From IMG/VR virus record IMGVR_UViG_3300025127_000020, positions 15,562-79,561 of that record: a DNA stretch of 64,000 nt; one strand, given 5' to 3'. A program made the position numbers and the translations under genes. The stretch is from a virus. Positions within the stretch are counted from its first letter, which is position 1. Each line of letters opens with the position of its first letter. This document shows, piece by piece, positions 1 through 63,470 of the stretch. The notes under the pieces are model-generated. The model saw nothing but the letters and a program-made list of their open reading frames with translations, made no database searches and was not told where the DNA came from.

Positions 1-1134
1 CTCCAAAGTCTTGATTGACCAACTGATGTTTCTATAGGTAGATCGTTCTTCGCTTTCAGCTTGAGCATTCACCCTTCTGTTTATCTCAAGAACCTCTTTG
101 AGAACCGCTGCGTCGTCTTCCGTGTCTGACAAATAATCATTTAGATACTCTTTTATCAAACGCTCTTGAACTGCCACATCTCGTAGGTTGAATTTTTCAA
201 AGTCCTCTGCTAAGTTGACCTTGGCACGAGAACCTGTAGCTCTGTTCAAGAAAGTAACAGATTCAGGTCTGAACTTTGTCTTGGCAACGTCAATAGCTTT
301 GCGAACCTTTTCCACTGGAATGGCATGGTTCGTTACGATTCTGAGCCTGGCACCCTGTGGCGGGTTAGCGTTTCTTGGCAAGCGACCAGTCTTTGTAAGT
401 TCCACTGTTACAAATGGTCTTGGATTCTTCAAGACGTGATGACGAACATCGAAAGTGTCTTTGTCGTCAATGTCCCAAATCAAAAAACCTTTATCGTTAG
501 TTTCGCCGTGATTCTGTTGAACAGTTGAACCACAATAACGAACTCGACCTTCAGTGTCTAAAATCTGGTTTGTTTTATGAATGTCTCCAAGAAAAGCAAA
601 GTCGTGACCCTCAAAGATTCCGACATCATCTTCACCATGGTCCATTACCCAGCCGATGTCTGTCTGAACTCCAGAGATCGCTCCATGATAAAGTGCTATG
701 TTTATTGATGTCTCATTAGATGGAGAAACCCAATTATCTCTGTCAAAAACAGAGAGAACATTAAAAGTCAGACCCTTCTCTGGAGAAAACTCACCTGAGT
801 TCTTCAAATAGTGAATAGTCTTTTTATCCAACGCATTGATGATTGGTGTAAGAGCATCCTGCCTGCTACTATTCTTTAGATTGCCATCGTGATTGCCTGC
901 GATAAGAACCAGGGGTGCAATGTCAGATAAATTATCAAAAAAGTTTGCAGCCATCTCAAAAAACTCTGGTGATAGCTGAGTCTTCGTGTGTGCAACATCT
1001 CCGCAGTGAACAATGTAGTCTGGTTTCTCCTCACGAAGAATAGTATACATCTGTTCAAACACTGCACGATAGTCGTCGTGATACTTTAAGTTTCTAATGT
1101 GTGTGTCGCTTATGTGAGCAAGTCTAAAACCCAT
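1..1134 (-). CDS. Mre11/SbcD-type metallophosphoesterase nuclease (T4 gp47-like), probably fused to a Rad50/SbcC ATPase; 3' end beyond the window
   Basis: Not in the ORF track. Hand translation from ATG 1134 is open for 378 codons to the edge: MGFRLAHISDTHIRN...HCGDVAHTK...AGNHDG...ALYHG...FLGDIHK...RYCGS, ending ...YRNISWSIKTLE. Confidence 0.9.
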   Translation of the reverse strand, partial: MGFRLAHISDTHIRNLKYHDDYRAVFEQMYTILREEKPDYIVHCGDVAHTKTQLSPEFFEMAANFFDNLSDIAPLVLIAGNHDGNLKNSSRQDALTPIINALDKKTIHYLKNSGEFSPEKGLTFNVLSVFDRDNWVSPSNETSINIALYHGAISGVQTDIGWVMDHGEDDVGIFEGHDFAFLGDIHKTNQILDTEGRVRYCGSTVQQNHGETNDKGFLIWDIDDKDTFDVRHHVLKNPRPFVTVELTKTGRLPRNANPPQGARLRIVTNHAIPVEKVRKAIDVAKTKFRPESVTFLNRATGSRAKVNLAEDFEKFNLRDVAVQERLIKEYLNDYLSDTEDDAAVLKEVLEINRRVNAQAESEERSTYRNISWSIKTLE

Positions 1135-34400: not shown

Positions 34401-34600
34401 TAAAGAACGTCGTCCCAATTTCTCCAGTTTCTCAGTGAGTTTCGAAGTGATAAAAGATTGATATCATAATCACCACGATCCATCCATTCAAAACCTTTTT
34501 TGTCGTAGGTGTTCATTGCACGAGAAGCTAATTCATAAGCCTCTGGTCCAGTGTGGTGAATGTGTCTTACGCCTAGTCTACGTCCTAATGCTTCGCCCAT
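28424..34600 (-). CDS. Giant virion protein with an N-terminal YkuD/L,D-transpeptidase-like domain, an SH3-like domain and long helical regions
   Basis: 2,058 aa; TTEP...GTAILQNGQW...GLHRG...GRFGINVHG...SGSAGC (His...Ser-x-Gly-Cys); then VPENTVVAV...EWSKIE...FYIKSADL (SH3b-like). Confidence 0.6.
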   Translation of the reverse strand: MGEALGRRLGVRHIHHTGPEAYELASRAMNTYDKKGFEWMDRGDYDINLLSLRNSLRNWRNWDDVLYAIYRVDGEWVVEEFSVTTEPQGGVVTRGAVWKKEGRAGTAILQNGQWKAYATGLHRGKPAITQQGIVTVWRDGNSNATLDYENSKGIDGRSGEDTGRFGINVHGHSVADSTVEWKDKKGWASGSAGCTITKYGSEIPTILYPLCDKMNKIYAKDAPSSEAFKQPRWLGGKRVMWLRYTVIWDTEFEEATPPPSDKQLYPPLLESTHMVTSDTLMQVIYPSAGHYIEFTEVPENTVVAVRTEKTGGFFEWSKIEPLPDSELYKKSKFFYIKSADLKALEGIPESAEMSFTDDKVVIDRYIADDEASLPQKPWTEYEIDVPWFDKSLAEHRVSVTSDFESLGAMGAEGSASRNEALQDVLHKGLSKIFEEEGKQHDSDFVYSLILTEKLIFGKVLEHYVDPKTSATARFLVTIEHKYVEPLPDSESDYDFRTEEEQVDYRVLSDNIKEFSNLILKLKPQVDSYEGEVRVYDVKKESQLLLDYKNSFDILLLENGFMQEDLDKLAALPARGGEEGQIVIGWKEGYKASYISIFYENELREIKTGLVKFKKLKEVESVRVQEIIHKIDQYSHSSYSLSQFIQSFVTQDPPEFIPNSSESDAGGDSEALGPPVKTIEDFKKEQNYVDNIARKKDVYEKRKKEKNCTQSSMATKNSLPKTKKAIDNSEKVFSDALNSISIPHLFQNALACLQVPQISNDIEVLSEFLKELPKVPTMFVPDDFPTDDIGAEFMKTLSETLAFMIKNTITGLLKGAIDSILSCKDDDLDSPLKIDPFELSSAISNLGGDGSFDPEEVESFVDGLATFLSSDELCTLLNGEATDQTLQLVQNYIERFYPNLKIRTKSEIENFFITLGGSIDFSICFEALAPQNQFIDPNNLCLEDDELRRRILSEKNGITESEVEDQIARNNNRRKQLADRIKAALNTPPLSGAFETPELFCQRVMGRPINESTPGLVSFADPTFAEMVGTTVDSTFSSFRDKFNQEANDYFNSFFTITSKPMRDPNTGEIVIDPETGTSTLIPTRELLPSLSEFYSNPSFDIEHEIESFKIPIEENYELQGELERFVERSNAVERETDKWIVAIEILFNYFQINEETDFIGLSAALRRWQQNMEQNVEDLNERRNVLIRQKRTMIETENTEDVERIEKEIEAVDIILAERWLFRVEDLVEYQKRLKEYRQRQFQIDAVQGSSAEILNYSPSRELKLRTFSAGFSYDYEISVDSGVFLDPTTGTFPPQVYRREKRLSPEELSFVSSRVPPGDRRPFTLFESIIRRGLGPFQLTQEDYEVIDYELIYKSLKVKFIEEITKKLNTSPYFKNVKANKKAIELIELVTKATSPECDNHVLRLKTLIDEIKKNFSEEFCVDADSLEGKPSKTPFETELMRACIRLTIRHYILEGLLRSIISNSVFATSELEEAVIFDFTFDLMKSEMQRYGSYYDDFLNEVGEYLLDPDLLEPPSPEGVMIELFESEFKEIKLAFEIAIMKPKGLTQTVKDFFINKILLDTEEVINRQNIGNDTFENHYHKDLVVQRAVRFHFGDMTSFDENLSPRNNVFYEHEDSESLEERVRDYAQELIGLGVSKQEIRDSIQSYYVVCLVDMAYPYYRDGLESFNPDFGFVNNPRPARPSAEKAFLTPDKRRIVIPLFETKRKPYTMVFSESPTHRSTADDLRQEERHLEARYQELYRARDRIWDNPRNHYHHDMTEPLLPNRQAAYDAIVTEIDTLLVRLNEIRNLIGGFSQEEIPMQEITDFEGVSLSFKNNTNEYALQELKLSAEVSVLLDYIFPLEIYKSSFIIYEMSTLSLISEVRNALLVSRDELNILFYTITPEADDWKKIAKPMQENSSEDILAAYQFNFGLQLGSCKSDLAWNFGLDVDWGNAFKGLSLGAAAKAASDAALQVFKDYVEKNDPNIKLAVYLSKLQRLACIDVSPTENSLGLSIANPLLYGPNPLNAAYNALGLGNLNKKGSKEQPNVEGLERRDICEELAERDSQESNSDNDE

Positions 34601-43131: not shown

Positions 43132-44460
43132 CTATAAAATTTTAGAACCAAGTGTTGCGATTGCAGAACGTTCACCCTTTTTTAAAGTTACGTGACCTGT
43201 AATCTCGTGCTCCTTCATTTTTTCTACTGCATAGGTTAGTCCGTTAGTTCTCTCATCTATATAGATGTTATCAATTTGTTCAACGTCTCCAGTAAGAATA
43301 AGTTTTGTCCCTTCTCCTACTCGGGTAACAATAGTCTTAAGTTCATGCTTAGTGAGATTTTGTGCTTCATCAATAATAATAAAAGCATTGGCAATGGATC
43401 GACCTCTAATGTAGGTAAGTGCCTCGACTTCTATCTTTCCCATGTCCATGTATTCTTGCAGTGTAACTGAATCATCGACCATTAAAAATTTTAAATTATC
43501 TTGAATAGGTTTTAGCCAAGGCTCCATTTTTTCTTCCATTGTCCCTGGTAAAAATCCGATATCTTTTCCGAGGGGCTCTACGGGACGAGAGACAATAAGT
43601 CTTGTGTAGATGGACCTTTGACTGCTCATTGGATGATCGTCGAGGGTTTGCTCTAAGCCTGCTGCGATTGCACATAAAGTCTTACCAGAACCAGCTTTGC
43701 CAACAAGTGACACGAGGGAGATAGAAGGGTCCATTAGAAGCTCAATAGCATAGGTCTGTTCCTTGTTTCGAGGAGAGATGCCCCAAACCCTACGCTTGTT
43801 TGGAATTTTTATTAATGGAGAATTATAATTTTTAAATCTTGCAAGAGCAGACTTCTTTTCATTTATCTCAGAAGACATAACAAGAAACTGATTTCCATTT
43901 AATCCCTGCTCTTCTTTTGGAATAAAAACATCTTCTCCATTATAAAAATCTTCTATGACAGAATCTTTTACAACCATCTCGGTGTAGCCTGAATAAATTT
44001 CATCTAAAGATTCTATAACCTGACTTGCTTGATAATCGTCTGTTGACAATCCTATAGAATCACACTTAACTCTCAGGTTAATATCTCTTGAAACAAGAGT
44101 GACCTTGGAATCTGGGTTTTCAACTTTAACTGTCAATGCAGTGGCTATAATTTGATTATCTGGATCTTCTACGTCCCAGTCTAATGGAATAAGTTGAGGA
44201 TCGTAGCTTCTAGCCGTAACAGTTCCAAAGCCTTCTCCCATAGAAACACCATTATGCAATGAACCTATCTCTCTTAGTTCATCCAAAGCTCTGATAATAT
44301 TTCTAGCATTAGATCCTACGGCATCTTGTCTTTTCTTATGTTTATCAATTTCTTCAAGAACTTTGAATGGAATAACAATATCATTATCTTCAAAAGCTCT
44401 AAGTGAGGAGAAATCTGTCAAATAAACACTGGTGTCAATAACGTAAATTTTGTTTGTCAT
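43132..44460 (-). CDS. phoH: PIN-domain + PhoH-family ATPase (PhoH2-like)
   Basis: YVIDTSV...EEID...DNQI...SRDINLRVK PIN domain; GKAGSGKT Walker A; IGFLPG, YIRGRSI, IIDEAQN, TGDVEQID. Confidence 0.92.
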   Translation of the reverse strand: MTNKIYVIDTSVYLTDFSSLRAFEDNDIVIPFKVLEEIDKHKKRQDAVGSNARNIIRALDELREIGSLHNGVSMGEGFGTVTARSYDPQLIPLDWDVEDPDNQIIATALTVKVENPDSKVTLVSRDINLRVKCDSIGLSTDDYQASQVIESLDEIYSGYTEMVVKDSVIEDFYNGEDVFIPKEEQGLNGNQFLVMSSEINEKKSALARFKNYNSPLIKIPNKRRVWGISPRNKEQTYAIELLMDPSISLVSLVGKAGSGKTLCAIAAGLEQTLDDHPMSSQRSIYTRLIVSRPVEPLGKDIGFLPGTMEEKMEPWLKPIQDNLKFLMVDDSVTLQEYMDMGKIEVEALTYIRGRSIANAFIIIDEAQNLTKHELKTIVTRVGEGTKLILTGDVEQIDNIYIDERTNGLTYAVEKMKEHEITGHVTLKKGERSAIATLGSKIL

Positions 44461-47564: not shown

Positions 47565-48377
47565 TTAAGGCTCGATTGTGTCTAAAGCTGCGTCGCAAAG
47601 ATTCTTGTTGGCGGTTGCAGCAGCTACTGCGGCATCCACATCCACATCATTAGCACCAGTAACGGCAATTACAGAAGCTCCAGATAAGTGATAAGGGTTT
47701 GCGCCAGGAACTGTTACACCCGCTGTAGCGGTTGCAGCCGCAATCTCTGCTTTAAGTTCATTTGCTTGCGATTGTTGATCTTGCAATGTTGTAAGCAATG
47801 TTGCCAATGCAGCTTTTGTGCAATCAGCAGCTTGGGCAACTTGACCGACTGCGGTACCTGCTCTTAGTTGAGCAAGGCGTGTTGCTTGGTCTGCTGGATC
47901 TGCGAGTCCAGCAGCAGCTTCAAGGTCTGTCCTTGCATTTGCAAATCTAGTTGCAATGTCTGCTATAGAACCGTCGTTTGGAGCTACAGGGTTACCATCT
48001 GCACCGATAGACCTAAGAAAAGCATCTAATGCAATTTTATTAAAAACAATGTCTCTGTTGTCTCCAATTCCGTCGTTGTCTGTGTCTCGAACTTCAGATG
48101 CATCAAGATCATCAAAATCAACCCCGTGGGCTGCTCCGTCTTCGTCAATGTTTAAAGTTTCGTTTATAAGACCTGGGTTTGCAATTCCAATTACGTCTAA
48201 TAACAAGCCGTCACCAGAACCTTCACCAGCGCCGTCACCGCCAGCCTTTGCAATTGAATCGAGTTCCACTAATCTTGATTCTTGAAGAGAAGGTGTCGCA
48301 AGTGATGGCACACCCGTAACCAAGACTCTATTTAATTTTGCCTTGATAATCTTTTTTAGTCTTTTCTGTTTTGACAT
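47565..48377 (-). CDS. Ala-rich protein with a thrombospondin type-3-like Ca-binding repeat
   Basis: LDASEVRDTDNDGIGDNRD; GGAGG RBS; late motif upstream. Confidence 0.6.
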   Translation of the reverse strand: MSKQKRLKKIIKAKLNRVLVTGVPSLATPSLQESRLVELDSIAKAGGDGAGEGSGDGLLLDVIGIANPGLINETLNIDEDGAAHGVDFDDLDASEVRDTDNDGIGDNRDIVFNKIALDAFLRSIGADGNPVAPNDGSIADIATRFANARTDLEAAAGLADPADQATRLAQLRAGTAVGQVAQAADCTKAALATLLTTLQDQQSQANELKAEIAAATATAGVTVPGANPYHLSGASVIAVTGANDVDVDAAVAAATANKNLCDAALDTIEP

Positions 48378-52178: not shown

Positions 52179-52433
52179 TTACTCCTTTGATCCTTCTTCT
52201 AGGATGCGAAGTTGTTCTTCAAGAGTTTCAATTCTCTCGTTTGCTTTTCTAAGATGTCTTTTAATTTCTTTTAGATTGTGCTTAGCGATATCGACTCTTC
52301 TAGAGTCTCTAAGGGAGCCTGTGCGAATGGAAGATAAAGCCTCTTCGATAGATTGAACGAGAGCTTGCCAATTGACCTGTTGTTTACCTTCGTTCACAAT
52401 AAACTTTCTCGTCATTTTTCTTAAATCTATCAT
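52179..52433 (-). CDS. Small coiled-coil protein
   Basis: 84 aa; heptad-like LKEIKRHLRKANERIETLEEQL; GGAGG RBS. Confidence 0.65.
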   Translation of the reverse strand: MIDLRKMTRKFIVNEGKQQVNWQALVQSIEEALSSIRTGSLRDSRRVDIAKHNLKEIKRHLRKANERIETLEEQLRILEEGSKE

Positions 52434-52512: not shown

Positions 52513-55500
52513 TCATTCGTAATCGTGACCTACTGGATATAGCTTGGTAACTTCTGTCCAATTAACTCCATCGTCTGCTCTGAAGGCTTGAAGGGTCATG
52601 TTACCAGCAGTTCCATCATTCATAGAAATAACAATCTTTAAATCAGACATCGCACCAGTGTGAGTGTGGTTTGAGCCAGCAAATGATGTAGAATTATAAT
52701 TGGCTGGAAAGTAGAAAGTTACATTTGTGTTATTATCTGGCGCATCAGCAATAGTGGTCGATTTAGTTCCTGAATTATCATCACCATAATAGCCAATAGC
52801 TAACTCAGTAGCAGTGGCAGAACTTCCTTTACCGAAAGGAACTACATATTGACTTGCACCACCAGTAGAGTTGCCAACTGAATATTCAGTTCTTCCACTA
52901 GTAACCTGACTATGCATTCTGTGTGATGCGTCACTAATGTTCCCCGTGCCGAGTTGTCGATAATCAATTAAATAATAATCTGTTCCTCCAATAGTCATTG
53001 TAACTGCACCTCTGTAATAATCAAACTCTTTAAGGTAATTTACAAAAGCATGATTATCTTGTGTAACAAAATCACTTAATTGAAGTTTCCAAAGTGGACC
53101 TTGCATGGCAACGTTTGTGCTACCCTGTGTTCTATATTTCCACGCAAAAGAATTTAGGAATTGATTAATGCCAGAGGATGTTTCAACATAAGGAGGAGAA
53201 ATTATAGCGTTATCTTCAGCTATCAATTTACCAGCACCCCAGTTAGTGTCTACTATGGTTGAATTTGTTGGAGAATTACTCATTCTAAACGCCCAAGACA
53301 TTATGCGAGAAGTATCAAGGTTATGTCTCCAGTGAAGACTTATGTATCTATGACTGGCACTTGTCCCAGTAGCTTTAGAGTTTATCCATGAGATGGTAAC
53401 TTGTTCATAATCAGAGTCCCAAGTAGTTGTAAACTGTTTAGAATCTGCCATGTAATTACCCCAATTCCCAGAAATAATTGAATGTGGTTCTTCAAGATTA
53501 TAAAATTTCTGAGCACAATCTTGAGAGCCAACACCTGAAACGGTAAACGTCACACTTGAAGCCTCTCCATTGCCATTCGAAAGCCCAGATGTGTCAATTC
53601 CTACTAACTTCATAACACTACAGCCTCCTCCGCCTCCGCCTGAGCCTCCACCTCCGCCAGGAGGTGATGGAGCTTCAGGAAGATTACTAGGCACAAATCC
53701 ATCTTCCTGTGTAATAACAGGTGGATGACTTTCTGGTGACGTCGGTCCTCTTGGGTTTGGTCTACCTGGAACTGAAAAAGGAACTTGTTCAACAGTAGTG
53801 CCACTTCCAGGTGCAGTCCATTCACTATTTTCTTTATCGACGTCGCAGATAACATATGTTGCATCACTATTGTGGCACCCACAATCACAATCTACAACAT
53901 TAATTGTTAAAACACCGCTTCCAACTTGACCTGCTGTGTCTGTTACTGTAAAGTTTTGCGTGTGAGTTCCAACAGCTACACCTGTTGTATTTATTGTTGC
54001 AACACCAGTGTTGACATCAATAGTTACGAGTCCTGCTGGGGCAGTCCCACCAGAAGTTTCTGCAAATAAAATTCCAGATTCTTGACCCTTTATTATGCAA
54101 CCATAATTCAGTTGAACAGAAAAGTCTGTTTCACCAGCGCAAATTTCAACTGTTTCAGACTGAGGGCACGGAGCGGTTGCACAGTTTGACACTGCAATTA
54201 GAGATTCGCTGCCACCTTGAGAACAAGAGTCGCCTTCATTAATTGCATCTGTAGAATCTGTGTTCCATAAGCCCCAATTTGCATGATTTGGATCGCCACT
54301 TACAGAACCATCTTTTGCTTGAGTTACAACTGCGTATTTATAACTTGAACTAGTGGCAAAAATCGCTTGGCTTGGCAGTGAACTATCTTTAAATGTTGTC
54401 GTCGCCTCATCTGTAGTTCCAACCTTTACATAAGGACCACCAGTTGGATGAGGCTTTCTATAGACTATGTAACGTTCAACAGTCTTTCCACTTGTTGCTG
54501 TGTTTGTCGCATTCCACGTAACAGTGACCTCTGGATGATTGCTATCGGAGCAGCTTGTAGCCGAAGTTGAAAGATTTGTTACATTTTCCAAAGCACAACA
54601 TTCTACAGTAACTGAAACAATTGTAGGCTCTGAAGTAACTACTGTGTTAGAGCTATTTGTAGTTTGAGCAGTGATTCTGTAGTTATAAATAACATCAGCA
54701 TTACAACATTCAGAAATTCCAGGTTCATCAACAAGAGTTATTTCTCTCTCACCTACATGATTTCTCGACTCAATTTTCGTGACGTCAGTAAAACTAGAGC
54801 TTGTAGATAATTTTCTTTGAATTACCCAAGTCGTTTCAGCTATGTCTCCAACCTCATTCTGAAGAGTGATCAAAACCTTACCAGAATTTTCTTCGCCACA
54901 TCCAAAAGGTGTTATTGTAAAATTTGGGTCGGGTGGAATGAAATTCAATTCAATAATCCCCCCAGGCTGTTCAATATTAAAACTAGGACCAGCGCCAGGG
55001 CGTGACATCGCTCTTGCAGTATAGGTAAATTCCACTTTGCCTAACAGATTCTCGGGTGGTCTATAAATTAATTTTCCTTCGTTTGCAAATGAACTGTCAA
55101 TTCTTCCGCCAAGACTTGGAACAGAAGTTACAATAACACTCACAGGAACTCCAGTTTCAGGAGAAGAGTTGCCAAAAAATGCTGGAGCATCGTTGAATGT
55201 TACTGGTAAAAATATTTCAACATCGCTATTCATAACACGAGTTAAAGAGACATCTGGTGTTGTAATAGTTCCGTCGCAGCAATTGTAAGAAACCGTAACT
55301 TCTTTTGCGACTTCGCCAGCGCTATTAAATGCTATTACATAATAAGTTGCTTCATGAGTTAGACTACAGTCTCTGACTGGAACACTTGGTAAATCAATGT
55401 AAGTTTGATGAGTTGATAGTGTTGTTAAGAATTCTAATTTAGTTGCATAAAGATCTTCTGTTCTGACAATTCCTTCTTTTAAAAATTTATTTATTAAAGC

Positions 55501-57333
55501 AGAATCAGGAGTTTTATATGATTCTGAGATTATTCTAGCCTTACGATAAACATTATAACCAGTTGCACTGGTAGACTGACCTATTGCTAGACTTATTTTT
55601 CCAGGGTTTGTTGGCTGATTACAAGCAATAAACGTGCCAGATAAAGTAAAATCTCCTGGTAATGTAATGCTACAACAATCACTAGGAACTATTAGAGCAG
55701 TGTTATCAGAGGCTGTGTCAAGCCCCTTAATTGTAATGTGATTTCCAACAGCTAAAACATCACTAATTGCAAGCTCACTTCTTCCAGTCTCTGAAATAAA
55801 TTTTTGAGTAAAAGTATTTAAAGAATCATAGGGTGAAGATTCTGCTCCGCCAAACCCTTCTCGATAATAGTAAAGACATGCCATTAAATCTTTTACACCG
55901 ACAGTCGAATGAGAGACGCTTCCTAAAAACCCATTCAAATCAATAGCAGTCCAATTATTAGAATAATCGTTAACAGGTGCTTTTAATGTCTCACTAGTCA
56001 CCATTTTAAAACTAGATAAAACTGGAATAGAAGAGAAAGATTCTAGGTTCACAACAACTCTTGTAAGTTTTTTAAATTTACCACCAGTAGACGGTAAGCT
56101 CCAAGCAGTTGTAGGTGAGTTTAAATCTCCCAAATCTACTGTCCCGTCTTCATTTTGATGTAATAATCTACCAAAAGAAAATCCAAAGATTCTGGTGTTT
56201 ATCTTTTCATCTGGTGCATTATAAGTTAGTCTATCTGAGTTTGATAATGCTGGATCTCTACCTAAATTTTCAAGCCACTGTTTTTTATATGCTTCTTGAT
56301 CATCTAATTGTAAAATCTTTAATGCTCCACCTACACCTTGAAATGCAGTTCTAGATTTTAATCCACCAAGAGTTATTTCGTAACCACTAATCCTGCACGT
56401 TGATTTATAACCAAACGTTATGACGGCTTCTTTACCATTCTTAGAAGTAGTTGAGTTTAAGATGCAAATTTCAGAATCGCAGTCGGAAGTTGTTGCAATA
56501 TCTTTCGGACTCTCACAAACAGTGCAGTCAGAATCGCTAATCATTTGTTCTTCACAGATATAATCAAATAAAATTTTTGAACCGTCAATTCTAAAGAGTT
56601 TATGAGAACATAAATCTGTTATATCATAATAACCCTTAAGTCTGGTGTCTTTGGATTTATTCCAATTAGTAGCATCGAATATAAGACCAGACTGATAAAT
56701 GTCTGCAATCTCATCTGTGAATGTATTGAAACTTGTGTCATCACCAAATCCAGACCAAGAATCATTTTTTATGTTGCTTGTAGTCAGGATTGCAAAAACT
56801 GGATTAGGGCTTGATGGAGAATTTATGTTGTCGTTTGCATAAACAATGCTTGTCTTGTTTGTAACATCTGAACTAGAAAGACCAGCAAATGCATTGTTAG
56901 AAGTCGTTATTTCAATAGTTAAAAAGTTAGTGTCTGTTTCCGCAGGAGCTAAAAATGTTCCAGCAGAAGAAAAGAATCCAAAGACTAAAAATCTATTCCC
57001 TCCCAGTGCTTGCGGTACTGAGATTTGAAACCCTGGCTGACTCCCTGCTCTCTCTGAAACATTAATGCTGGGACTTGTTATAGTAAGGGATGAATCGAAC
57101 TCAATTACAAATTGATAACCATACACCTTACTGGAGGATTTATAGTCTAGTTGAATTGTAGCAGTTGTGTCGCTGTCTTTGGTGACCCCTTCTACTTTTA
57201 CTGTTCTATAACAAATTGTAGAGTCTCCACAAATCAAACCTTCAGGATTCTTATTTGTCCCTGAAACACCTTTTCCTGATGAAGCAGGGTCAGAACCAGA
57301 GCCACCACTGGGTGGGGGGGCAAACATGGTCAT
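52513..57333 (-). CDS. Large virion surface/fibre-like protein: cohesin-like and degenerate dockerin-like modules, FN3/Ig repeats, Gly linker, C-terminal domain
   Basis: LDYKSSSKVYGYQF...VFGFF; FGYKSTCRISGYEI...IFGFSF; IDLNG...VGVKDL; GYNVYR, YIVYRK...YKYAV FN3 patterns; Cys-rich junctions. Confidence 0.6.
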   Translation of the reverse strand: MTMFAPPPSGGSGSDPASSGKGVSGTNKNPEGLICGDSTICYRTVKVEGVTKDSDTTATIQLDYKSSSKVYGYQFVIEFDSSLTITSPSINVSERAGSQPGFQISVPQALGGNRFLVFGFFSSAGTFLAPAETDTNFLTIEITTSNNAFAGLSSSDVTNKTSIVYANDNINSPSSPNPVFAILTTSNIKNDSWSGFGDDTSFNTFTDEIADIYQSGLIFDATNWNKSKDTRLKGYYDITDLCSHKLFRIDGSKILFDYICEEQMISDSDCTVCESPKDIATTSDCDSEICILNSTTSKNGKEAVITFGYKSTCRISGYEITLGGLKSRTAFQGVGGALKILQLDDQEAYKKQWLENLGRDPALSNSDRLTYNAPDEKINTRIFGFSFGRLLHQNEDGTVDLGDLNSPTTAWSLPSTGGKFKKLTRVVVNLESFSSIPVLSSFKMVTSETLKAPVNDYSNNWTAIDLNGFLGSVSHSTVGVKDLMACLYYYREGFGGAESSPYDSLNTFTQKFISETGRSELAISDVLAVGNHITIKGLDTASDNTALIVPSDCCSITLPGDFTLSGTFIACNQPTNPGKISLAIGQSTSATGYNVYRKARIISESYKTPDSALINKFLKEGIVRTEDLYATKLEFLTTLSTHQTYIDLPSVPVRDCSLTHEATYYVIAFNSAGEVAKEVTVSYNCCDGTITTPDVSLTRVMNSDVEIFLPVTFNDAPAFFGNSSPETGVPVSVIVTSVPSLGGRIDSSFANEGKLIYRPPENLLGKVEFTYTARAMSRPGAGPSFNIEQPGGIIELNFIPPDPNFTITPFGCGEENSGKVLITLQNEVGDIAETTWVIQRKLSTSSSFTDVTKIESRNHVGEREITLVDEPGISECCNADVIYNYRITAQTTNSSNTVVTSEPTIVSVTVECCALENVTNLSTSATSCSDSNHPEVTVTWNATNTATSGKTVERYIVYRKPHPTGGPYVKVGTTDEATTTFKDSSLPSQAIFATSSSYKYAVVTQAKDGSVSGDPNHANWGLWNTDSTDAINEGDSCSQGGSESLIAVSNCATAPCPQSETVEICAGETDFSVQLNYGCIIKGQESGILFAETSGGTAPAGLVTIDVNTGVATINTTGVAVGTHTQNFTVTDTAGQVGSGVLTINVVDCDCGCHNSDATYVICDVDKENSEWTAPGSGTTVEQVPFSVPGRPNPRGPTSPESHPPVITQEDGFVPSNLPEAPSPPGGGGGSGGGGGGCSVMKLVGIDTSGLSNGNGEASSVTFTVSGVGSQDCAQKFYNLEEPHSIISGNWGNYMADSKQFTTTWDSDYEQVTISWINSKATGTSASHRYISLHWRHNLDTSRIMSWAFRMSNSPTNSTIVDTNWGAGKLIAEDNAIISPPYVETSSGINQFLNSFAWKYRTQGSTNVAMQGPLWKLQLSDFVTQDNHAFVNYLKEFDYYRGAVTMTIGGTDYYLIDYRQLGTGNISDASHRMHSQVTSGRTEYSVGNSTGGASQYVVPFGKGSSATATELAIGYYGDDNSGTKSTTIADAPDNNTNVTFYFPANYNSTSFAGSNHTHTGAMSDLKIVISMNDGTAGNMTLQAFRADDGVNWTEVTKLYPVGHDYE

Positions 57334-60300
57334 TACACTAATCCTCCTACTGGGTCGTCTGAAGAGTTAAATAAATAATTAATGTCTTTGTCTATGGAAA
57401 CTCTACTTGAGATCCATTTTGCACCACATTTAGAACTTCTTTTTGTTTTATGTGATAAATGGTCTTTAAATTTATTAATTGCGAATCGAGTCTCTGGGTC
57501 ACTGTTTCTTAAAGTTTCATAAGTAAAGTCAGAAGGAGAACCAACATGCGTAGAAGGAAGTGATGACTTTAATCCAAACTTCATAGCTAAGTAGGCTTCT
57601 ACTTTTTGTCTAAAATCGTCCGTCACAGAATCAGAATAAAACAAAAATTCATAAATTTTACCATTGAAACCCTTTGTTCCACTTGCAGGATTACCAGTTC
57701 CATCATAACCAAGTGCCCATCCAAAATCGTTGTCTGTGAGAGTAGAAGTAATAGAATTGGAAACATCAGTTCCAACAAGAGTTCCGTTTAAAAATAGTTT
57801 ACAATCACCACCAGCTTGTCCAAGAAAAGTTACAACCTGTTTTGTTCTTAAATCAGATAGGCTGGAATAACTATGTGTAAGTGTTATTGTCCCACCAGAA
57901 GTTGTAACACATTTAGCAATAAGAGAACCATTGCTTGTTGTGTCGAATTTAAGACTTATTTGCGGCTGTGTTGTGGAAACATTTGTTCCAATTGTAGTAA
58001 AAACAATTCCCTCATCAGGTGAAGTTGGCATAACAGGTTCCACAACAACAGAAGCCATCCAAGTGGTTATGTTTTTTGTTCTTGCATAAATCACACTATC
58101 AGATGTCAAACCCTGAGTTCCACTGAATGAAACGTGGTCTGCGCCTCTAGTAGGACTGTAGGTCGTGTTGTCAGAGTGAGGAATAAGATCTAAACCTTGG
58201 CTTACCCATTTTGTAATGTTGGAACTAGTGTCTACAACTACGCTGTCTTCAAATGTTTTTGATGCATCGCAGATTTGAATTAAGGATTTATCGTTTACTT
58301 GTGTTCCAAACCTTTGTTTTGTTCCCTGATTTGCCTCAATTGTGTTGTCGTTTGAGACATTCCAATTTGATAAATAATCTTTTTCTCCTTGAAAAGAACT
58401 ATCTAAGTTTGGAATAAATAAATTGTTAGATTTTCCAAGCGGTGGGCAAATAAGCTCTTGTCCACTTGAAATAATAGATTTTTCAAAAACATCTTTATCT
58501 AAAATTATTCTACATAGTATTCCCTTGCCTATGAGATTTCTTGGTTCAGCGTAGTTTCCAGAAAAGCCAGTAATTAAAATTATGTCTTCTCCATTGGAGT
58601 CTGTAGTATTTTGAGCAGATATATTCCATCCATTTAAAGACTTCACTCCAATGTTTGTAATGAAGCTACTCCACTTAGCACCGTTCCATGTTCTGATAGC
58701 AAAGTTAAATCTTCTAAATTGCTTTTTAGAATTATAAATAATGTCTATTGCGTTCGTTCCAATAGCAGATGTGTGAAGAACATAATCACTGTAAGTGTGA
58801 GTTGAACTACTGTTATCTTCATAATTTTGTAATAAGATGCTACTGGGCGGACCTAAAATTAAATCACCATTTCCAGAATTATAATTTACTTCAGAAACGT
58901 CAGTAGTCAAAGAACCCACTGTTTCATCGTAAGTTCCTTTTGGTCTTTTTCTAAAATGAATGTGTCCATCTGATAGTCTTATGGTTTCTTCTTTTAATCC
59001 TTCAATATTTTTATCCAATAAAATAGTTGCAATCTTAAATGCTCCACCATCATAGGTTATTGGAATTGCATTGTTTTCAACGGAAGATGCCCCACTAGCG
59101 ACTCTACAAACAAAATGAATTTCCCCTTCAGATGCATCACCACTAATCGGAAATGTGTATGAACCGTCAGAATTTGCACTTATTGGTGTAGTTTTATTAT
59201 TCTTATAAACTTCTAATCCTGCAAATGAACTGTTTAAAATAATTTTTGCAGTTACTGCGGTGTCTGTTAAAGCATAGCCTGAACAAATGTTTAATGTAAA
59301 TCTAGCATGGTCTATAAAATTAATCTCACGGTTACTCGTGTGCATCTTTACTTCAAATAGTGCGCCACCATTTTGCAAAGTTCGAATGTCTGGAGCATTT
59401 TTATAAGGAATGGAATAAATGTCTTTTTGATAACGGTACCAATCTTTAAACTCTTGAGGCAGTGTTGTTAAATAATTTGAACCCTCAGTGAATGAATCTG
59501 GAAATTTTCTTAAAAATGGTAACGAGTTTGAAGAATAGGTAATAGCAGTGTTTCCTCTTTCTCCCTTTTTAACGCTTGTTATTGTAACCTTCGAGCCACT
59601 AATCGCAGTCGTAAAAGAGTTACCATGTGTAGCATCTCCATCGATTGCATTTTTAAAGTTTGTAGCAGTAGCGCTTGCAGACCCGCCTATGGTTACTGAG
59701 ACATTAGAGCCAGAAACTCCTGCTGCACTTTCAAATTCATAAACTTTTGTTACGCCGTCCCAATCTGTTAGTGTGATGGTTTCCGCATCTACGCCAACTC
59801 CTCTAAATTCTATTTCAGCAGAAGCGGCTTTATCAGGTAAAATGTCTGTTCTTTGTGACAAATAAAGCATAACTTTAGGGTCTTGATCTTCTAAAGAATG
59901 AACAGACGGGCAGATTGACGGATAGGTAGACGTTCTATAACCATTATTTTGAGAATAGGAAGGGACTATTCTATCAAGTTCTCTTGCTGAAGTAAGAGAG
60001 TCGATCTGTGCAAGGTTCCAAAAACTAACGTCGCTTGAACTCGCAAACTTATTATTGTTGCCACTCTTAGAAATAACTGATAAAGAAGATGCATCAAATG
60101 TTCCGCCATTAAAAGGCAAAGACATCCTCATTTGAGACAGGTTGACAAAAGCTACTAAGTCTGCTACATCAAATCGACCGTCGAGATTTGAATCAATGTC
60201 AAATCCCGATGCACTACTTAAATAAGAATAAGCAGAGAAAGTTGGATTAGAGTCAAGTCCGTTGTAGAGAGATTTTTTTATATAATCTCTAAAAGTCTTT

Positions 60301-61913
60301 TCATAAAAGTCTGAATAGTTAGGATAGTCGTGACTGCTTATTGCTTGTGAATAGAACAATTCTTTACCCTTATAAGGTAAATTTTGTTCATGGTGCTCTA
60401 TAAATTCTCTAAGGTCATTTGAAACTACTTTAACATTAAAAATTTCAATTCCTTGCCAAGATTTTTCTAGAAGCATTGATGTTGGAGTCCACTTTCCAGA
60501 TGTTGTGGTCCAATAATCATTTTCATGATAAACTACGTTTCCATAGTATCGAGTTCCTGCTGTGAATGTTTGATTACTAGCAGTGTAACTATCTTGTTTT
60601 ATTTTATAAATAACTTCAGGGGCTTTACAACCGTCAGGAATACAATCTTTTATGCAAAATTCTAAAATTTGATAATCTTCAACTGGAGGCATTGAATTTT
60701 CAGTAAACAAATTTGTCATAGATTCTTTGTCTGAAATAATGTCAGTTAATCTTTTTGACGTGCTTATTGGCTTTTGAAAACTTACTATTCTTGTAACTTG
60801 ATCGAAACCGAATCGATCCGAAATAGAAATAAAGTCTGAGAACCAATTACCATCGATAGAAGGATTGATTGTTATAGATTGATTTTTACCTGGAGACTTA
60901 CTATAATAATTATAACCTAAATCAAACTGAAATCCAGAAACGCTAACGTCTGAAGAAATTTTTATTTTTATTTTGAAATCGTGTGGTTCAGATTCTCGGT
61001 CTAGCAATAAAGAAGAGTCTTTTGAAGAAGAGTAATCAGAGGTGTCTTCATAGGGTTCTTCCGAACAACCGTAAAAACCTGTTCTTTCTTTTAGCGACCT
61101 TTGTCTAGAAGGGTAAGACTCTACACAAGAAATAAAAATGCTCTTGTTATTTTCTTCTTCTGTAACAGCACATGCAAGAGGTGGAACTACAATGTCAGAA
61201 TTAAGATTGTTGAAATTTTTGTTAGCCTTGTAAGCAATTGCAACTATGTCGGATAAATTTATTTTAGAGGAAACTTCACCAGAAAAATACTTATCAGAAA
61301 ATTTGTCCTCGTAAGACATTCTAATTACATTGTTTAATTCAGACTCAAACCAGAAGTTATTTTGAACTCCAAAAAGAAACCAATTTGAATTTGCCTTTTT
61401 TATTTTATTCGCCGCTGCTTCTGTTGCAACTTGATCTTCAAGAATTGTTGTTGTTTTTACAGATTTTTTAAGAGAACAATCTCTTCCACCAACGATAACA
61501 TAACATAGAATTTGACTAGCTAAACTACCTAGATAAGACAAGCCAGCCTCTCTTACTGGGTCAAACACTCCGTAAACATTATCTTTGTAAGAATAAAGTC
61601 TAAACTCTTGAGTTTTTGCATGCCCATCAACACCATTAAATCCGCCAACTACTGCCAAGATGTTTTTACAATCACTAGGAAGATCAAGATTTTCAAACGG
61701 CATCTTAAACTGAAAGCCACTAATAATACCAGTCGTTTTATAAGAAATCTCATAGACAACTACATCAGAATTTAAATTATTTATAGATTCTGTAATGTTA
61801 GTTGCATTTCTGTGAACGTCTGTGATCGCACCTAGATCTTTTAACTTGCCGCTGTAGACATTAGAAATAAAAAAATCAAAATTGCAATCTGACGGGGGTG
61901 AAGGTGTAACCAT
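57333..61913 (-). CDS. Large virion surface protein: cohesin-like repeats, dockerin-like EF-hand, C-terminal LamG
   Basis: ISYKTTGIISGFQF; ISSDVSVSGFQFDL; IIYNSKKQFRRFNF; DSNLDGRFDVADLVAFVN; LFLNG...FNGKIYEFLFY...RQKVEAYLAMKFGL. Confidence 0.65.
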   Translation of the reverse strand: MVTPSPPSDCNFDFFISNVYSGKLKDLGAITDVHRNATNITESINNLNSDVVVYEISYKTTGIISGFQFKMPFENLDLPSDCKNILAVVGGFNGVDGHAKTQEFRLYSYKDNVYGVFDPVREAGLSYLGSLASQILCYVIVGGRDCSLKKSVKTTTILEDQVATEAAANKIKKANSNWFLFGVQNNFWFESELNNVIRMSYEDKFSDKYFSGEVSSKINLSDIVAIAYKANKNFNNLNSDIVVPPLACAVTEEENNKSIFISCVESYPSRQRSLKERTGFYGCSEEPYEDTSDYSSSKDSSLLLDRESEPHDFKIKIKISSDVSVSGFQFDLGYNYYSKSPGKNQSITINPSIDGNWFSDFISISDRFGFDQVTRIVSFQKPISTSKRLTDIISDKESMTNLFTENSMPPVEDYQILEFCIKDCIPDGCKAPEVIYKIKQDSYTASNQTFTAGTRYYGNVVYHENDYWTTTSGKWTPTSMLLEKSWQGIEIFNVKVVSNDLREFIEHHEQNLPYKGKELFYSQAISSHDYPNYSDFYEKTFRDYIKKSLYNGLDSNPTFSAYSYLSSASGFDIDSNLDGRFDVADLVAFVNLSQMRMSLPFNGGTFDASSLSVISKSGNNNKFASSSDVSFWNLAQIDSLTSARELDRIVPSYSQNNGYRTSTYPSICPSVHSLEDQDPKVMLYLSQRTDILPDKAASAEIEFRGVGVDAETITLTDWDGVTKVYEFESAAGVSGSNVSVTIGGSASATATNFKNAIDGDATHGNSFTTAISGSKVTITSVKKGERGNTAITYSSNSLPFLRKFPDSFTEGSNYLTTLPQEFKDWYRYQKDIYSIPYKNAPDIRTLQNGGALFEVKMHTSNREINFIDHARFTLNICSGYALTDTAVTAKIILNSSFAGLEVYKNNKTTPISANSDGSYTFPISGDASEGEIHFVCRVASGASSVENNAIPITYDGGAFKIATILLDKNIEGLKEETIRLSDGHIHFRKRPKGTYDETVGSLTTDVSEVNYNSGNGDLILGPPSSILLQNYEDNSSSTHTYSDYVLHTSAIGTNAIDIIYNSKKQFRRFNFAIRTWNGAKWSSFITNIGVKSLNGWNISAQNTTDSNGEDIILITGFSGNYAEPRNLIGKGILCRIILDKDVFEKSIISSGQELICPPLGKSNNLFIPNLDSSFQGEKDYLSNWNVSNDNTIEANQGTKQRFGTQVNDKSLIQICDASKTFEDSVVVDTSSNITKWVSQGLDLIPHSDNTTYSPTRGADHVSFSGTQGLTSDSVIYARTKNITTWMASVVVEPVMPTSPDEGIVFTTIGTNVSTTQPQISLKFDTTSNGSLIAKCVTTSGGTITLTHSYSSLSDLRTKQVVTFLGQAGGDCKLFLNGTLVGTDVSNSITSTLTDNDFGWALGYDGTGNPASGTKGFNGKIYEFLFYSDSVTDDFRQKVEAYLAMKFGLKSSLPSTHVGSPSDFTYETLRNSDPETRFAINKFKDHLSHKTKRSSKCGAKWISSRVSIDKDINYLFNSSDDPVGGLV

Positions 61914-62051: not shown

Positions 62052-63470
62052 TTAGCTAAGTTTCCAAGCCTTCATAAGACGCTCATTTAAAAGAGTCGAA
62101 CGCTTCTTGCGAATGCTCTTATTCCAGTCTTCTGAGATAGTTCTTGCGTCGTTTCTCATTTGAGCATAGAAGTCTTCTTGTGTCTCGGCAATGTCTGGAA
62201 GTTCTACGTCGCTTGTGTCAAGATAGTCTTGAATGTCAGATGCAGCGTATTCCTTGCCGAATCCGTCAACAACAACATCGCCTGAACCTAGCTCACCGTA
62301 AAGCCAGTCAGCAAGTTCTTCGTTTTCTTCCATTGCACGAACGTCCTTTTCGATGTTGCCAGTGAATTTCATTTTGGTTAATTTGTGTCTCATATCACCG
62401 TAACGGTCTTCTTCAGATTCGATATCGTCCTCAATGGCTTCATTCTTTTCATCTTTTTCGGCATCAATAATAGCTTTCTGAAGGTGGTCTGGAAGTTCGT
62501 CTTTCTGGTCGCCTGTGAGTGCTGGATGGTCGTCGTGCTTATCTGTGGTTGCTTCATCAACACCCTGCATCTGTGCGAGTAGAATAGTAATCATCTGGTC
62601 AACTCTTTCAAGTCGCTCAATAGCCTCTGGGTCTTCAATCATTCCAATGACACCATTGACAACATCACCGATTGTTTCAATCTGTGTGATTGTTCTAGAC
62701 ATCTCGTCACCTTCTGCAACAACCTCTTCTTCCATCGCTTTGCCACAAGTGCATTCACTTCTTGGGGCATCGCCATCGCAATGAGGACAACCCTTCATTT
62801 CCATCATGTCGTCTTCATCATCGGCTGGCATCTCGTCGTCCATAGCGGCTTGAACGTCAGCAGGTGCCTTTCCACCCATTTCTGGGTCGTCTTTAAGAAA
62901 TGGGAACTCTTTCTCCAAGTCGTCCATGTAGGCATCGTCTTCGTAGTCCATCTCCTGAATCTTGTTTTGTGTAAGAACTCGTGAGACAGCTTCTCTAACG
63001 ATGGTTCTCATTTCTTTCTTGGTGCTCATTTTTAACTTCTCCTTAGTAAATGTTTTGATAACACTCTCATAAATAGTTCCAACTTCTTGTTTTGCCTTAT
63101 AACCGTCTTCCCAGTCTCTAAAGCACATGTTACCTTCTAAATAAGCCTCTTCTTCAAGTGCTCTAAGGTGCATGTCATTTTGAGCATAGCCAGGACCAGT
63201 AGCTCTTGGTTCATTCATCTTACCTTGGCAGTTTTGCCTGTGATGGACTAGTTCATGAGCCACTGAGCGAAGGATGTCTTTCGGATGTCTACCTGAAATG
63301 TAGACGGTTACTTGCATGTTATCTGGGTTATAGTGCGCTGTAGTGCCGAGAGGATTTTTAGAATTCTCTTCATCACTGGCGAAAGTTATCTTAGCATCTT
63401 TATCAAAGCCAAGCCTGTTTTTGGCAAACTGATAAAAGTGAGATAACAATGTTTGCATTTGTTCGTTCAT
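62052..63470 (-). CDS. N-terminal HEXXH metallopeptidase domain + acidic scaffold-like region
   Basis: TAHY...RHPKDILRSVAHELVHHRQ...EEEAY; acidic C-terminal two-thirds; CPHC..CTC mini-motif. Confidence 0.7.
   Translation of the reverse strand: MNEQMQTLLSHFYQFAKNRLGFDKDAKITFASDEENSKNPLGTTAHYNPDNMQVTVYISGRHPKDILRSVAHELVHHRQNCQGKMNEPRATGPGYAQNDMHLRALEEEAYLEGNMCFRDWEDGYKAKQEVGTIYESVIKTFTKEKLKMSTKKEMRTIVREAVSRVLTQNKIQEMDYEDDAYMDDLEKEFPFLKDDPEMGGKAPADVQAAMDDEMPADDEDDMMEMKGCPHCDGDAPRSECTCGKAMEEEVVAEGDEMSRTITQIETIGDVVNGVIGMIEDPEAIERLERVDQMITILLAQMQGVDEATTDKHDDHPALTGDQKDELPDHLQKAIIDAEKDEKNEAIEDDIESEEDRYGDMRHKLTKMKFTGNIEKDVRAMEENEELADWLYGELGSGDVVVDGFGKEYAASDIQDYLDTSDVELPDIAETQEDFYAQMRNDARTISEDWNKSIRKKRSTLLNERLMKAWKLS

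What the first reader, a model, noticed from the sequence alone, without database searches (positions are those of the whole stretch)
52513..61913. Cellulosome-like cohesin-dockerin modules in two adjacent giant phage proteins
Seen: at least five repeats of an about 100-aa beta module with a YxS/T...(I/V)xG(F/Y)QF...GF signature (about 61490-61760, 60650-60980, 58490-58760, 56900-57170, 56040-56430). Several are followed by EF-hand/dockerin-like segments: a near-canonical DSNLDGRFDVADLVAFVN (about 60140-60200) and degenerate KINLSDIVAIA, YDITDL, IDLNG..VGVKDL and LAISDVLAV. The two genes are translationally coupled, sit behind a late motif, lack signal peptides, and end in LamG or FN3 plus a putative binding domain. 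Known: dockerin repeats (DxNxDGxxxxxDxxxxxx) bind cohesins in a Ca-dependent way in cellulosomes and in some non-cellulosomal bacterial and archaeal surface proteins. Inference: the phage either builds a modular, self-assembling fibre via cohesin-dockerin contacts or mimics these modules to dock onto host surface cohesins/dockerins as receptors. I am not aware of this being described for a virion.
Basis: partly seen in the sequence, partly recalled or inferred. Interest (0 to 1): 0.82.

Follow-up and report, generated by a model that had tools for sequence, protein, structure and literature searches.

The report
Cohesin-like modules in phage fibre proteins
Two neighbouring giant proteins of an uncultured marine phage are built partly from the "socket" fold (cohesin) and calcium-loop "plug" motifs that bacteria use to clip surface proteins together. 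The parts are arranged in an unusual built-in way, and whether they clip anything together has not been tested.

Summary
The two translationally coupled genes (P0001 1526 aa, P0002 1606 aa) carry four related beta-sandwich modules, not five.

- **The other two modules:** tied to these only by profile-profile similarity.
- **The fifth module (P0001 ~1030-1175):** not supported.

The calcium-loop segments are real and are the most conserved parts of both proteins. DSNLDGRFDVAD is nearly invariant in 16 relatives. They are not dockerin modules: Pfam Dockerin_1 finds nothing, and they are single loop-helix units. In the P0001 model, the F-hand excursions sit inside the sandwiches, before the last strand.

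Three distant relatives fuse the two proteins and drop exactly P0002's N-terminal cohesin. This suggests that this module joins the two chains.

Most likely this is a two-segment, calcium-stabilised virion fibre with a hypervariable receptor tip. Binding is untested. I found no published description in phage virions. The scan has noted other phage cohesin-dockerin sets on other DNA.

The parts
57333..61913 (-). Gene for P0001 (1526 aa), first fibre segment
   Evidence: ORF and translation. It follows a 14-bp terminator hairpin (62004-61974) and a CTATTTAT motif. Relatives are P0011-P0025.
61419..61886 (-). P0001 module 1, beta-sandwich (aa 10-165). It is closed by strand aa 241-246 after the first F-hand.
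61212..61301 (-). P0001 F-hand site 1 (aa 205-234, KINLSDIVAIAYK), degenerate loop plus helix
   Evidence: Helix 220-234 in the model. I218, D222 and K229 are invariant. Relatives have canonical loops here (P0015, P0020, P0024), and P0020 aa 207-236 gives Dockerin_1 E 0.028.
60642..61151 (-). P0001 module 2, cohesin-fold sandwich, strands 1-8 (aa 255-424)
59967..60641 (-). Excursion inside P0001 module 2 (aa 425-649): small beta subdomain 434-503, helices 516-560, canonical F-hand, disordered stretch 602-639
   Evidence: Secondary structure and pLDDT of the model. The cohesin alignments run from 253 to 657 with only about 127 aligned residues.
60123..60194 (-). P0001 F-hand site 2 (aa 574-597), canonical Ca loop D-x-N-x-D-G-x-x-D-x-x-D plus helix
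   Evidence: Nearly invariant in 16 relatives at 22-45% identity. Only two strict matches occur in the whole contig. Helix 583-597. Block 501-600 is the most conserved of the protein.
59943..59966 (-). Last strand of P0001 module 2 (aa 650-657, IVPSYS)
   Evidence: Strand 650-656 in the model. The cohesin alignments end at 657. I649, V650, P651 and Y653 are invariant.
58389..58826 (-). Claimed fifth module (P0001 aa ~1030-1175): not supported as a repeat
   Evidence: hhalign probability about 1% to all four modules. No Pfam hit. Not folded here.
57504..58076 (-). P0001 C-terminal LamG/ConA-like lectin-type domain (aa ~1280-1470)
   Evidence: phrog_10356 'virion structural protein', E 9e-6, aa 1350-1459. 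Laminin_G_3 in 6 of 18 relatives, best E 3e-7. Weak pentraxin match, E 0.23.
52513..57333 (-). Gene for P0002 (1606 aa), second fibre segment. Its start overlaps the P0001 stop (TAATG).
   Evidence: Relatives are P0003-P0009. The gene pair and its neighbours are conserved in marine loci L002-L004.
56821..57204 (-). P0002 module 1, cohesin domain (aa 44-171)
56596..56649 (-). P0002 F-hand-like site 1 (aa 229-246, DTRLKGYYDITDL), with Arg and Lys at Ca positions 3 and 5
   Evidence: D229, R231, L232, K233, G234, D237, I238, T239 and D240 are invariant in 8 relatives.
55984..56478 (-). P0002 module 2, beta-sandwich (aa 286-450)
55729..55941 (-). P0002 three-helix segment with two degenerate F-hands (aa 465-535: IDLNG...VGVKDL and ELAISDVLAV), followed by the invariant ALIVPxDCC
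   Evidence: Helices 480-492, 503-513 and 523-531, but pLDDT only 35-63. The sites are conserved in 8 relatives. Blocks 401-600 are the most conserved of the protein. BLAST links it weakly to P0001 site 1 (E 0.3).
53749..55671 (-). P0002 shaft of Ig/FN3-like domains (aa ~555-1195), with conserved Cys pairs
   Evidence: Weak matches: NCAM Ig, tandem-95 repeat, Big_9 and PKD. Conserved CC and CDCGC motifs.
52516..53691 (-). P0002 C-terminal hypervariable domain (aa ~1215-1606), the probable receptor-binding tip
   Evidence: Identity to close relatives falls from about 80-95% to 33-55% at aa 1300-1500. The domain is absent from P0007-P0009.

Best explanation
P0001 and P0002 are two consecutive segments of a long 'beads-on-a-string' virion fibre or adhesin. 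The phage is an uncultured marine myovirus of roughly 180 kb.

**Architecture.** Each protein starts with two units of the same design. A unit is a cohesin-type beta-sandwich with a helical excursion that carries one F-hand Ca2+ loop (two in P0002 unit 2). In P0001 units 1 and 2 and in P0002 unit 2, an invariant (I/V)VP stretch follows the F-hand. In the P0001 model this stretch is the strand that completes the sandwich. After the units come Ig/FN3 shafts, then lectin-type ends: LamG in P0001 and a hypervariable tip in P0002.

**Shown here:**
- the cohesin fold of two modules;
- the relatedness of four modules;
- the conservation and canonical Ca ligands of the P0001 loop at aa 574-585;
- the embedded position of the loops in the P0001 model;
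- the gene coupling;
- the fusions in relatives;
- the variable tip.

**Inferred:**
- The proteins are in the virion.
- The embedded F-hands bind Ca2+ and stiffen or lock each sandwich once the particle is in Ca-rich sea water.
- P0002's N-terminal cohesin unit (aa 1-300) is the non-covalent joint that holds P0002 on P0001.
- The hypervariable P0002 C-terminus binds the host.
For: **Cohesin fold**
- Pfam Cohesin over the cut-off for P0002 aa 44-171.
- ESM Atlas neighbours of P0002 module 1 are Cohesin clusters.

**Four related units**
- hhalign 43-95% against under 10% for controls. The strand and F-hand matches between P0001 units 1 and 2 are collinear.
- The GFQF-type motif occurs only in these four places in the contig.

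**F-hands**
- Alignment of 16 relatives.
- These regions are the most conserved blocks of both proteins.

**Embedded position**
- Model secondary structure plus alignment ranges 253..657 and 13..248.

**Joint**
- P0015, P0024 and P0020 join a P0001-like protein directly to P0002 from aa ~301-347 onward. All three omit P0002 aa 1-300.
- TAATG start/stop overlap.
- The gene pair is conserved in three marine loci.

**Virion and fibre**
- PHROG virion structural protein hit.
- No leader peptides.
- A baseplate wedge gene lies in the same contig.
- The C-terminus is variable or replaceable.
Against: - No experiment or complex model shows any binding, Ca2+ dependence or presence in particles.
- The P0002 model is poor (mean pLDDT 47).
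- Only 2 of 8 P0002 relatives reach E 0.05 for Pfam Cohesin. No P0001-family member does.
- The genes lie about 25 kb from the baseplate genes, among non-structural genes.
- The fusions could equally mean that P0002 gained its N-terminal unit later.
- The F-hands are as canonical or more so in the fused relatives. They are therefore not the partner of the lost cohesin.
- I could not inspect model coordinates, so the contacts of the F-hand helices are unknown.
Confidence: 0.5

Rival explanations
1. The sandwiches are only spacers or weak glycan-binding (CBM3/Ig-like) beads of a virion adhesin. The F-hands are plain structural Ca sites. No cohesin-type protein-protein docking takes place, within or between the two proteins.
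Against: For P0001 module 2, cohesins stand about 3 Z units above all other folds. The F-hand regions are the most conserved blocks of both proteins, which is unusual for spacers. The three fusions all drop precisely the N-terminal cohesin unit.
Confidence: 0.3
2. Trans plug-and-socket assembly. The F-hand of one chain inserts into the cohesin face of another chain (swapped), polymerising or bundling the fibre.
For: Cohesin fold plus a canonical dockerin-type loop in the same proteins. Proteins that carry both a cohesin and a dockerin and self-associate are known, for example in Archaeoglobus fulgidus (my own knowledge; its cohesin 2xdh is among the matches). Translational coupling.
Against: There is no tandem F-hand pair in P0001, and no Dockerin_1 match. 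In the model each F-hand lies between strands of its own sandwich. No binding data exist.
Confidence: 0.12
3. Host mimicry. The modules dock onto cohesin- or dockerin-bearing surface proteins of the host and serve as the receptor-binding step.
For: Non-cellulosomal cohesin and dockerin modules occur on many bacterial and archaeal surfaces (general knowledge). The ESM Atlas neighbours include bacterial clusters.
Against: The modules are in the conserved N-terminal halves. The rapidly varying, replaceable part is the P0002 C-terminus. No cellular homologue was found by phmmer in 1.8 billion representatives or by the word-based searches. The host is unknown.
Confidence: 0.05
4. The proteins are not part of the particle. 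They are made late and act in or on the infected cell or after lysis, for example as a released adhesive matrix.
For: The genes sit among non-structural genes (PhoH, glycosyltransferases, a four-enzyme protein), far from the baseplate cluster.
Against: There are no export signals. The size and domain make-up are adhesin- or fibre-like, with a PHROG virion-protein hit and a hypervariable tip.
Confidence: 0.03

Closest known systems
Non-cellulosomal cohesin modules of Clostridium perfringens glycoside hydrolases (GH84C, GH33; PDB 2w1n, 2jh2, 2vo8, 2o4e) and of Archaeoglobus fulgidus (2xdh)
   Different: Sequence identity is only about 10%. The phage proteins have no signal peptide. No separate dockerin partner is evident. 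The phage sandwiches carry an internal F-hand excursion.
Type I cohesins of clostridial scaffoldins (C. acetobutylicum CohA2 6kgc; C. thermocellum 1aoh, 1ohz, 3ul4)
   Different: In the phage protein the first strand is separated from the rest by a disordered acidic loop. The last strand follows a 225-residue excursion. No Pfam match to Cohesin.
Dockerin type I (Pfam PF00404): two tandem F-hand Ca loops plus helices
   Same: The P0001 loop at aa 574-585 has Asp/Asn at positions 1, 3, 5, 9 and 12 and Gly at position 6, followed by a helix. Relatives have the same at site 1. P0002 aa 465-535 has three helices and two loop-helix remnants, as a dockerin has.
   Different: No Pfam hit in the contig; the best hit in relatives is E 0.028 for half a profile. 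The two P0001 F-hands are about 350 residues apart. In the P0001 model each lies inside a sandwich. The P0002 loops lack the Ca ligands: Arg/Lys at positions 3 and 5, or a six-residue insertion.
TMEM132-type adhesion proteins: cohesin plus Ig-domain arrays (PMC6030884)
   Same: A cohesin-fold domain is combined with strings of Ig-like domains in an adhesion-type protein unrelated to cellulosomes.
   Different: They are eukaryotic membrane proteins. No homology was shown here. They have no F-hand loops.
Multi-segment phage tail fibres encoded by consecutive genes (T4 gp34-gp37 type)
   Same: Adjacent, co-expressed genes encode successive parts. The conserved part is proximal and the tip is variable and distal. 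Relatives with fused or split versions exist.
   Different: There is no sequence or fold similarity to trimeric fibre proteins. The domain make-up (cohesin, Ig/FN3, LamG) resembles bacterial adhesins. The oligomeric state is unknown.

Membership tests
Cohesin (Pfam PF00963) | Sequence match to the family profile at or above the curated cut-off (24.1 bits) | tested here: met
   Applies to P0002 aa 44-171 only: 25.6 bits when scanned alone and 24.5 bits on the DNA, but 21 bits in the whole protein. This is borderline. Only 2 of 8 relatives reach E 0.05.
Cohesin (Pfam PF00963) | The same profile match for the other three modules (P0001 modules 1 and 2, P0002 module 2) | tested here: not met
   No hit at E up to 10 for the cut-out modules, nor in any of the 18 P0001-family members.
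Cohesin (Pfam PF00963) | Nine-strand jelly-roll sandwich that superposes on solved cohesins better than on other folds | tested here: met
Cohesin (Pfam PF00963) | Ca-dependent binding of a dockerin on the 8-3-6-5 face | not testable with these tools
   No complex prediction or coordinates were available.
Dockerin type I (Pfam PF00404) | Sequence match to the family profile (cut-off 22.9 bits) | tested here: not met
   No match at E up to 10 anywhere in the 79.5-kb contig or in the cut-out segment. Among relatives only P0020 aa 207-236 matches, at 15 bits, E 0.028.
Dockerin type I (Pfam PF00404) | Two tandem 22-residue F-hand repeats within about 60-70 residues | tested here: not met
   In P0001 the F-hands are single, at aa 205-234 and 574-597. 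Each lies inside a different sandwich. P0002 aa 465-535 has two degenerate repeats and three helices at low pLDDT, which is inconclusive.
Dockerin type I (Pfam PF00404) | Ca ligands Asp/Asn at loop positions 1, 3, 5, 9 and 12, followed by a helix | tested here: met
   Met for P0001 aa 574-585 only (D, N, D, D, D, with G at position 6), nearly invariant in 16 relatives. The other four segments of this phage lack two or more ligands.
LamG / Laminin_G_3 (PF13385) | Profile match in the C-terminal part of P0001 | tested here: inconclusive
   P0001 itself has no Pfam hit. 6 of 18 relatives match, best E 3e-7. phrog_10356 E 9e-6. Pentraxin E 0.23.
Phage virion fibre / receptor-binding protein | Presence in particles, attachment to the tail or head, binding to the host | not testable with these tools
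   Only indirect evidence: PHROG virion-protein hit, no leader peptide, variable C-terminal tip, baseplate wedge gene on the same contig.

The most novel reading that the evidence does not exclude
The unit 'cohesin sandwich with its own F-hand excursion before the last strand' may be a self-capping or swappable plug-and-socket. Inside the low-Ca cell the excursion would be loose. In sea water Ca2+ would fold it onto a cohesin face, either its own (locking the bead) or that of the next chain (zipping P0002 onto P0001 and the fibre onto the particle). That would be a Ca-triggered, cellulosome-style self-assembly system in a virus particle.
Probability: 0.15. Interest if true: 0.8.

Novelty: new variant of a known kind. 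Interest (0 to 1): 0.55.

Why it matters
Cohesin-dockerin pairs are the classic bacterial plug-and-socket for building surface machines. They are also a favourite tool of protein engineers.

Suppose a marine phage builds or joins its fibres with cohesin-type sandwiches that carry built-in calcium loops. That would show three things:
- a new way in which virus particles assemble large appendages from separate chains;
- a new architecture for this module pair, with the loop inside the socket domain rather than a separate plug;
- a possible calcium switch between the cell interior and sea water.

It would also give a handle on the function of the many unannotated giant proteins of marine phages. 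If the modules turn out to be only spacers, the finding is an ordinary case of adhesin-type domains on a phage fibre.

Tried and rejected
- **GenBank phages.** Megablast of the region and tblastn of both proteins gave no match.
- **IMG/VR viral contigs.** No relative apart from the own record.
- **Pairwise BLAST between the modules.** Not significant.
- **Searches against PDB sequences.** Profiles of both families, and single modules, found no cohesin or dockerin. Only chance-level nanobody, peptidase, NCAM and pentraxin hits appeared.
- **phmmer of P0001 aa 1-700 against 1.8 billion representatives.** Only 16 clusters were found. All are relatives of the same family, and none is a recognisable cellular cohesin or dockerin protein.
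- **Word-based search for short proteins like P0002 aa 38-180.** Nothing.
- **BFVD viral structure library.** No convincing match; TM-scores are mostly 0.05-0.2, and the few higher ones cover only short local stretches.
- **NCBIfam.** Nothing useful.
- **Fifth module.** Rejected as a repeat.
- **A true dockerin module in P0001.** Rejected.
- **The look-up of encoding contigs.** The context of relatives came from one metagenome scan instead.
- **Structure jobs.** Both prediction jobs went on the two N-terminal halves. Single modules, P0001 module 3 and the C-terminal domains were therefore not folded.
- **Papers.** Searches found no description of natural cohesin or dockerin modules in phage particles. 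One preprint mentions in passing a dockerin gene in a jumbo phage.

Full report
**Where it is.** The window is bases 15562-79561 of a 79.5-kb IMG/VR virus record that CheckV rates about 44% complete.
- The contig has a T4 gp6-type baseplate wedge gene at 26125-27963. Its nearest relatives are in Microcystis phage Mel-JY01 and the Flavobacterium 'immuto' myoviruses, at 27-30% identity.
- It also carries a PIN-PhoH gene, two GT4 glycosyltransferases and several other giant ORFs.
- Close relatives of the region occur in marine metagenome contigs, including a Tara Oceans scaffold. The gene order there is the same: a roughly 500-aa gene, a P0001-like gene, a P0002-like gene, then a roughly 988-aa gene.
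- So this is an uncultured marine myovirus. The host is unknown, and the window holds no tRNA genes.

**The two genes.**
- P0001 is encoded at 57333-61913 and has 1526 aa. P0002 is encoded at 52513-57333 and has 1606 aa. Both are on the minus strand.
- The P0001 stop and the P0002 start overlap as TAATG, behind AGGAGG.
- A strong terminator hairpin (62004-61974, 14 pairs) and then a CTATTTAT motif precede P0001. The pair therefore forms its own transcription unit.
- Neither protein has a signal-peptide-like N-terminus.
- Neither protein matches any GenBank phage.

**Are the repeats real?** Four are, the fifth is not.
- Pairwise BLAST between the claimed modules is not significant.
- Sub-profiles cut from the family alignments match each other by hhalign:

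| Pair | Probability |
|---|---|
| P0002 module 2 vs P0001 module 1 | 93% |
| P0002 module 1 vs module 2 | 75% |
| P0002 module 1 vs P0001 module 1 | 71% |
| P0001 module 1 vs module 2 | 72% |
| P0002 module 1 vs P0001 module 2 | 43% |
| P0002 module 2 vs P0001 module 2 | 8.5% (control level) |
| Control domains of the same proteins | under 10% |
| Claimed fifth module (P0001 ~1030-1175) vs all | about 1% |

- Five of the six pairs stand above the controls. The sixth does not, so P0002 module 2 and P0001 module 2 are linked only through the other two modules.
- With whole units, P0001 unit 1 matches unit 2 twice and collinearly: strands at 76%, F-hand at 59%. P0001 unit 1 matches P0002 unit 2 at 95%.
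- The motif [LIV]xG[FY][QE][FIL] occurs only four times in all ORFs of the contig, once per module and at the same relative place.

**Are they cohesins?**
- *P0002 aa 44-171.* It matches Pfam Cohesin at 21 bits within the whole protein. It scores 25.6 bits alone and 24.5 bits on the DNA, against a cut-off of 24.1.
  - The AlphaFold model of P0002 aa 1-620 is poor overall (mean pLDDT 47), but the two sandwich cores reach 60-85.
  - ESM Atlas neighbours are Cohesin clusters: 17 of 30 hits, score 0.92.
- *P0001 module 2.* The model of P0001 aa 1-700 is better: mean pLDDT 70.5, with module 1 at about 90.
  - All these alignments span model residues 253..657.
- No P0001-family member hits Pfam Cohesin.

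Verdict on the fold: two cohesin-fold modules are supported directly, and two more are supported only through profile similarity to these.

**The Ca-loop segments.** I aligned all relatives: 8 of P0002 and 16 of P0001, down to 22% identity.
- *P0001 site 2.* D-x-N-L-D-G-x-F-D-V-A-D followed by a helix is nearly invariant.
- *P0001 site 1.* It is degenerate in this phage (KINLSDIVAIAYK) but canonical in P0015, P0020 and P0024 (LDANNDGxIDIxDL). In P0020 it gives the only Dockerin_1 hit in the family, at E 0.028.
- *P0002 site 1.* It keeps the pattern, but invariant Arg and Lys stand at Ca positions 3 and 5.
- *P0002 aa 465-535.* It has two loop-helix remnants and three predicted helices, like a dockerin, but at low confidence.
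- These regions are the most conserved 100-residue blocks of both proteins.
- Pfam Dockerin_1 finds nothing in the contig.

**An unexpected architecture.**
- In the P0001 model the cohesin fold of module 2 is built from three pieces: strand 258-268, strands 311-424, and a last strand at 650-656 (invariant IVPxY).
- Residues 425-649 form an excursion. It holds a small beta subdomain, helices and the canonical F-hand.
- Module 1 behaves the same way. Structural matches span 13..248, which includes the strand after the site-1 helix (IVVPP).
- P0002 has the matching invariant ALIVPxDCC right after its three-helix segment.
- The F-hands are therefore built into the sandwiches, before their last strand. 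They are not separate C-terminal dockerin modules. I know of no cohesin described with such an insertion (my own knowledge, not tested).

**Fusions.**
- P0015 (2244 aa), P0024 (2339 aa) and P0020 (2100 aa) are P0001-like proteins that continue directly into a P0002-like chain. The continuation starts at P0002 aa ~301-347 (BLAST E 8e-49, 6e-34 and 8e-26).
- All three lack P0002 aa 1-300: the Gly-rich N-terminus, the Pfam-positive cohesin and F-hand site 1.
- This links the two proteins functionally and in the order of the genes. It fits the idea that the N-terminal unit of P0002 is the non-covalent joint. Later gain of that unit cannot be excluded.

**The rest of the proteins.**
- P0001 ends in a LamG-type domain: Laminin_G_3 in 6 of 18 relatives, and a PHROG virion structural protein hit.
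- P0002 has an Ig/FN3-type shaft with conserved Cys pairs.
- P0002 also has a C-terminal domain of about 390 aa. Its identity to close relatives drops to 33-55%, and it is absent in P0007-P0009. This is the usual signature of a receptor-binding tip.

**Reading.**
- *Most likely (about 0.5).* A two-segment virion fibre or adhesin. Its conserved proximal halves are made of cohesin-type sandwiches with built-in Ca loops. The P0002 N-terminal cohesin unit acts as the joint, and the P0002 C-terminus as the receptor binder.
- *Rivals.* Plain spacer or glycan-binding beads with structural Ca sites (0.3). Host mimicry (0.05; disfavoured because the modules are in the conserved half, not the variable one). 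Not a virion protein (0.03).

**Novelty.**
- Cohesin- and dockerin-like modules outside cellulosomes are known in all domains of life. The best structural matches here include C. perfringens and A. fulgidus non-cellulosomal cohesins.
- Paper searches found no description of such modules in phage particles. There is only a passing mention of a dockerin gene in a jumbo phage.
- Earlier notes of this scan report other phage cohesin-dockerin sets on other DNA, in exported proteins or with true dockerins. None concerns this protein family.
- I class it as a new variant of a known kind. Function is untested.

Noticed in passing
P0015, P0024, P0020 (relatives): Natural fusions of a P0001-like and a P0002-like protein. 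All of them lack the first ~300 residues of P0002.
   Followed up: partly
P0017 aa 1169-1238 (relative of P0001): A ubiquitin-activating-enzyme E1 FCCH domain (Pfam PF16190, E 1.4e-13, two stretches) sits inside a 2127-aa P0001-like phage protein. This is an odd place for that domain.
   Followed up: no
window 62052-63470 (-): The 472-aa protein just upstream has an HELVHH zincin-type metalloprotease motif and a weak DUF6647 hit (E 0.0014). Its C-terminal half is very acidic.
   Followed up: no
window 47565-48377 (-): This 270-aa ORF holds the only other strict DxDxDG-type Ca loop of the contig (DTDNDGIGDNRD, thrombospondin-type-3-like). No amphipathic helix follows it.
   Followed up: no
window 52179-52433 (-): An 84-aa, highly charged, coiled-coil-like ORF lies directly after P0002. 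It could be an assembly factor. It has no family match because it was not searched.
   Followed up: no
window 53749-56520 (-), P0002: Many invariant cysteines in pairs or clusters: CxxC at aa 270-273, CC at 553-554, 876-877 and 912-913, and CDCGC at 1149-1153. This is unusual for a protein made in the cytoplasm. They could be disulfides formed after release, or metal sites.
   Followed up: no
window 43132-44460 (-): A PIN-domain plus PhoH ATPase fusion (PhoH2 type), well supported: PF13638 E 1e-28 and PF02562 E 1e-50.
   Followed up: no
window 13335-24662 and 28424-34600 (-): Two further giant ORFs (3775 and 2058 aa) flank the baseplate wedge gene and have almost no family matches. The 3775-aa ORF has none; the 2058-aa ORF has only phrog_3000 of unknown function.
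   Followed up: no
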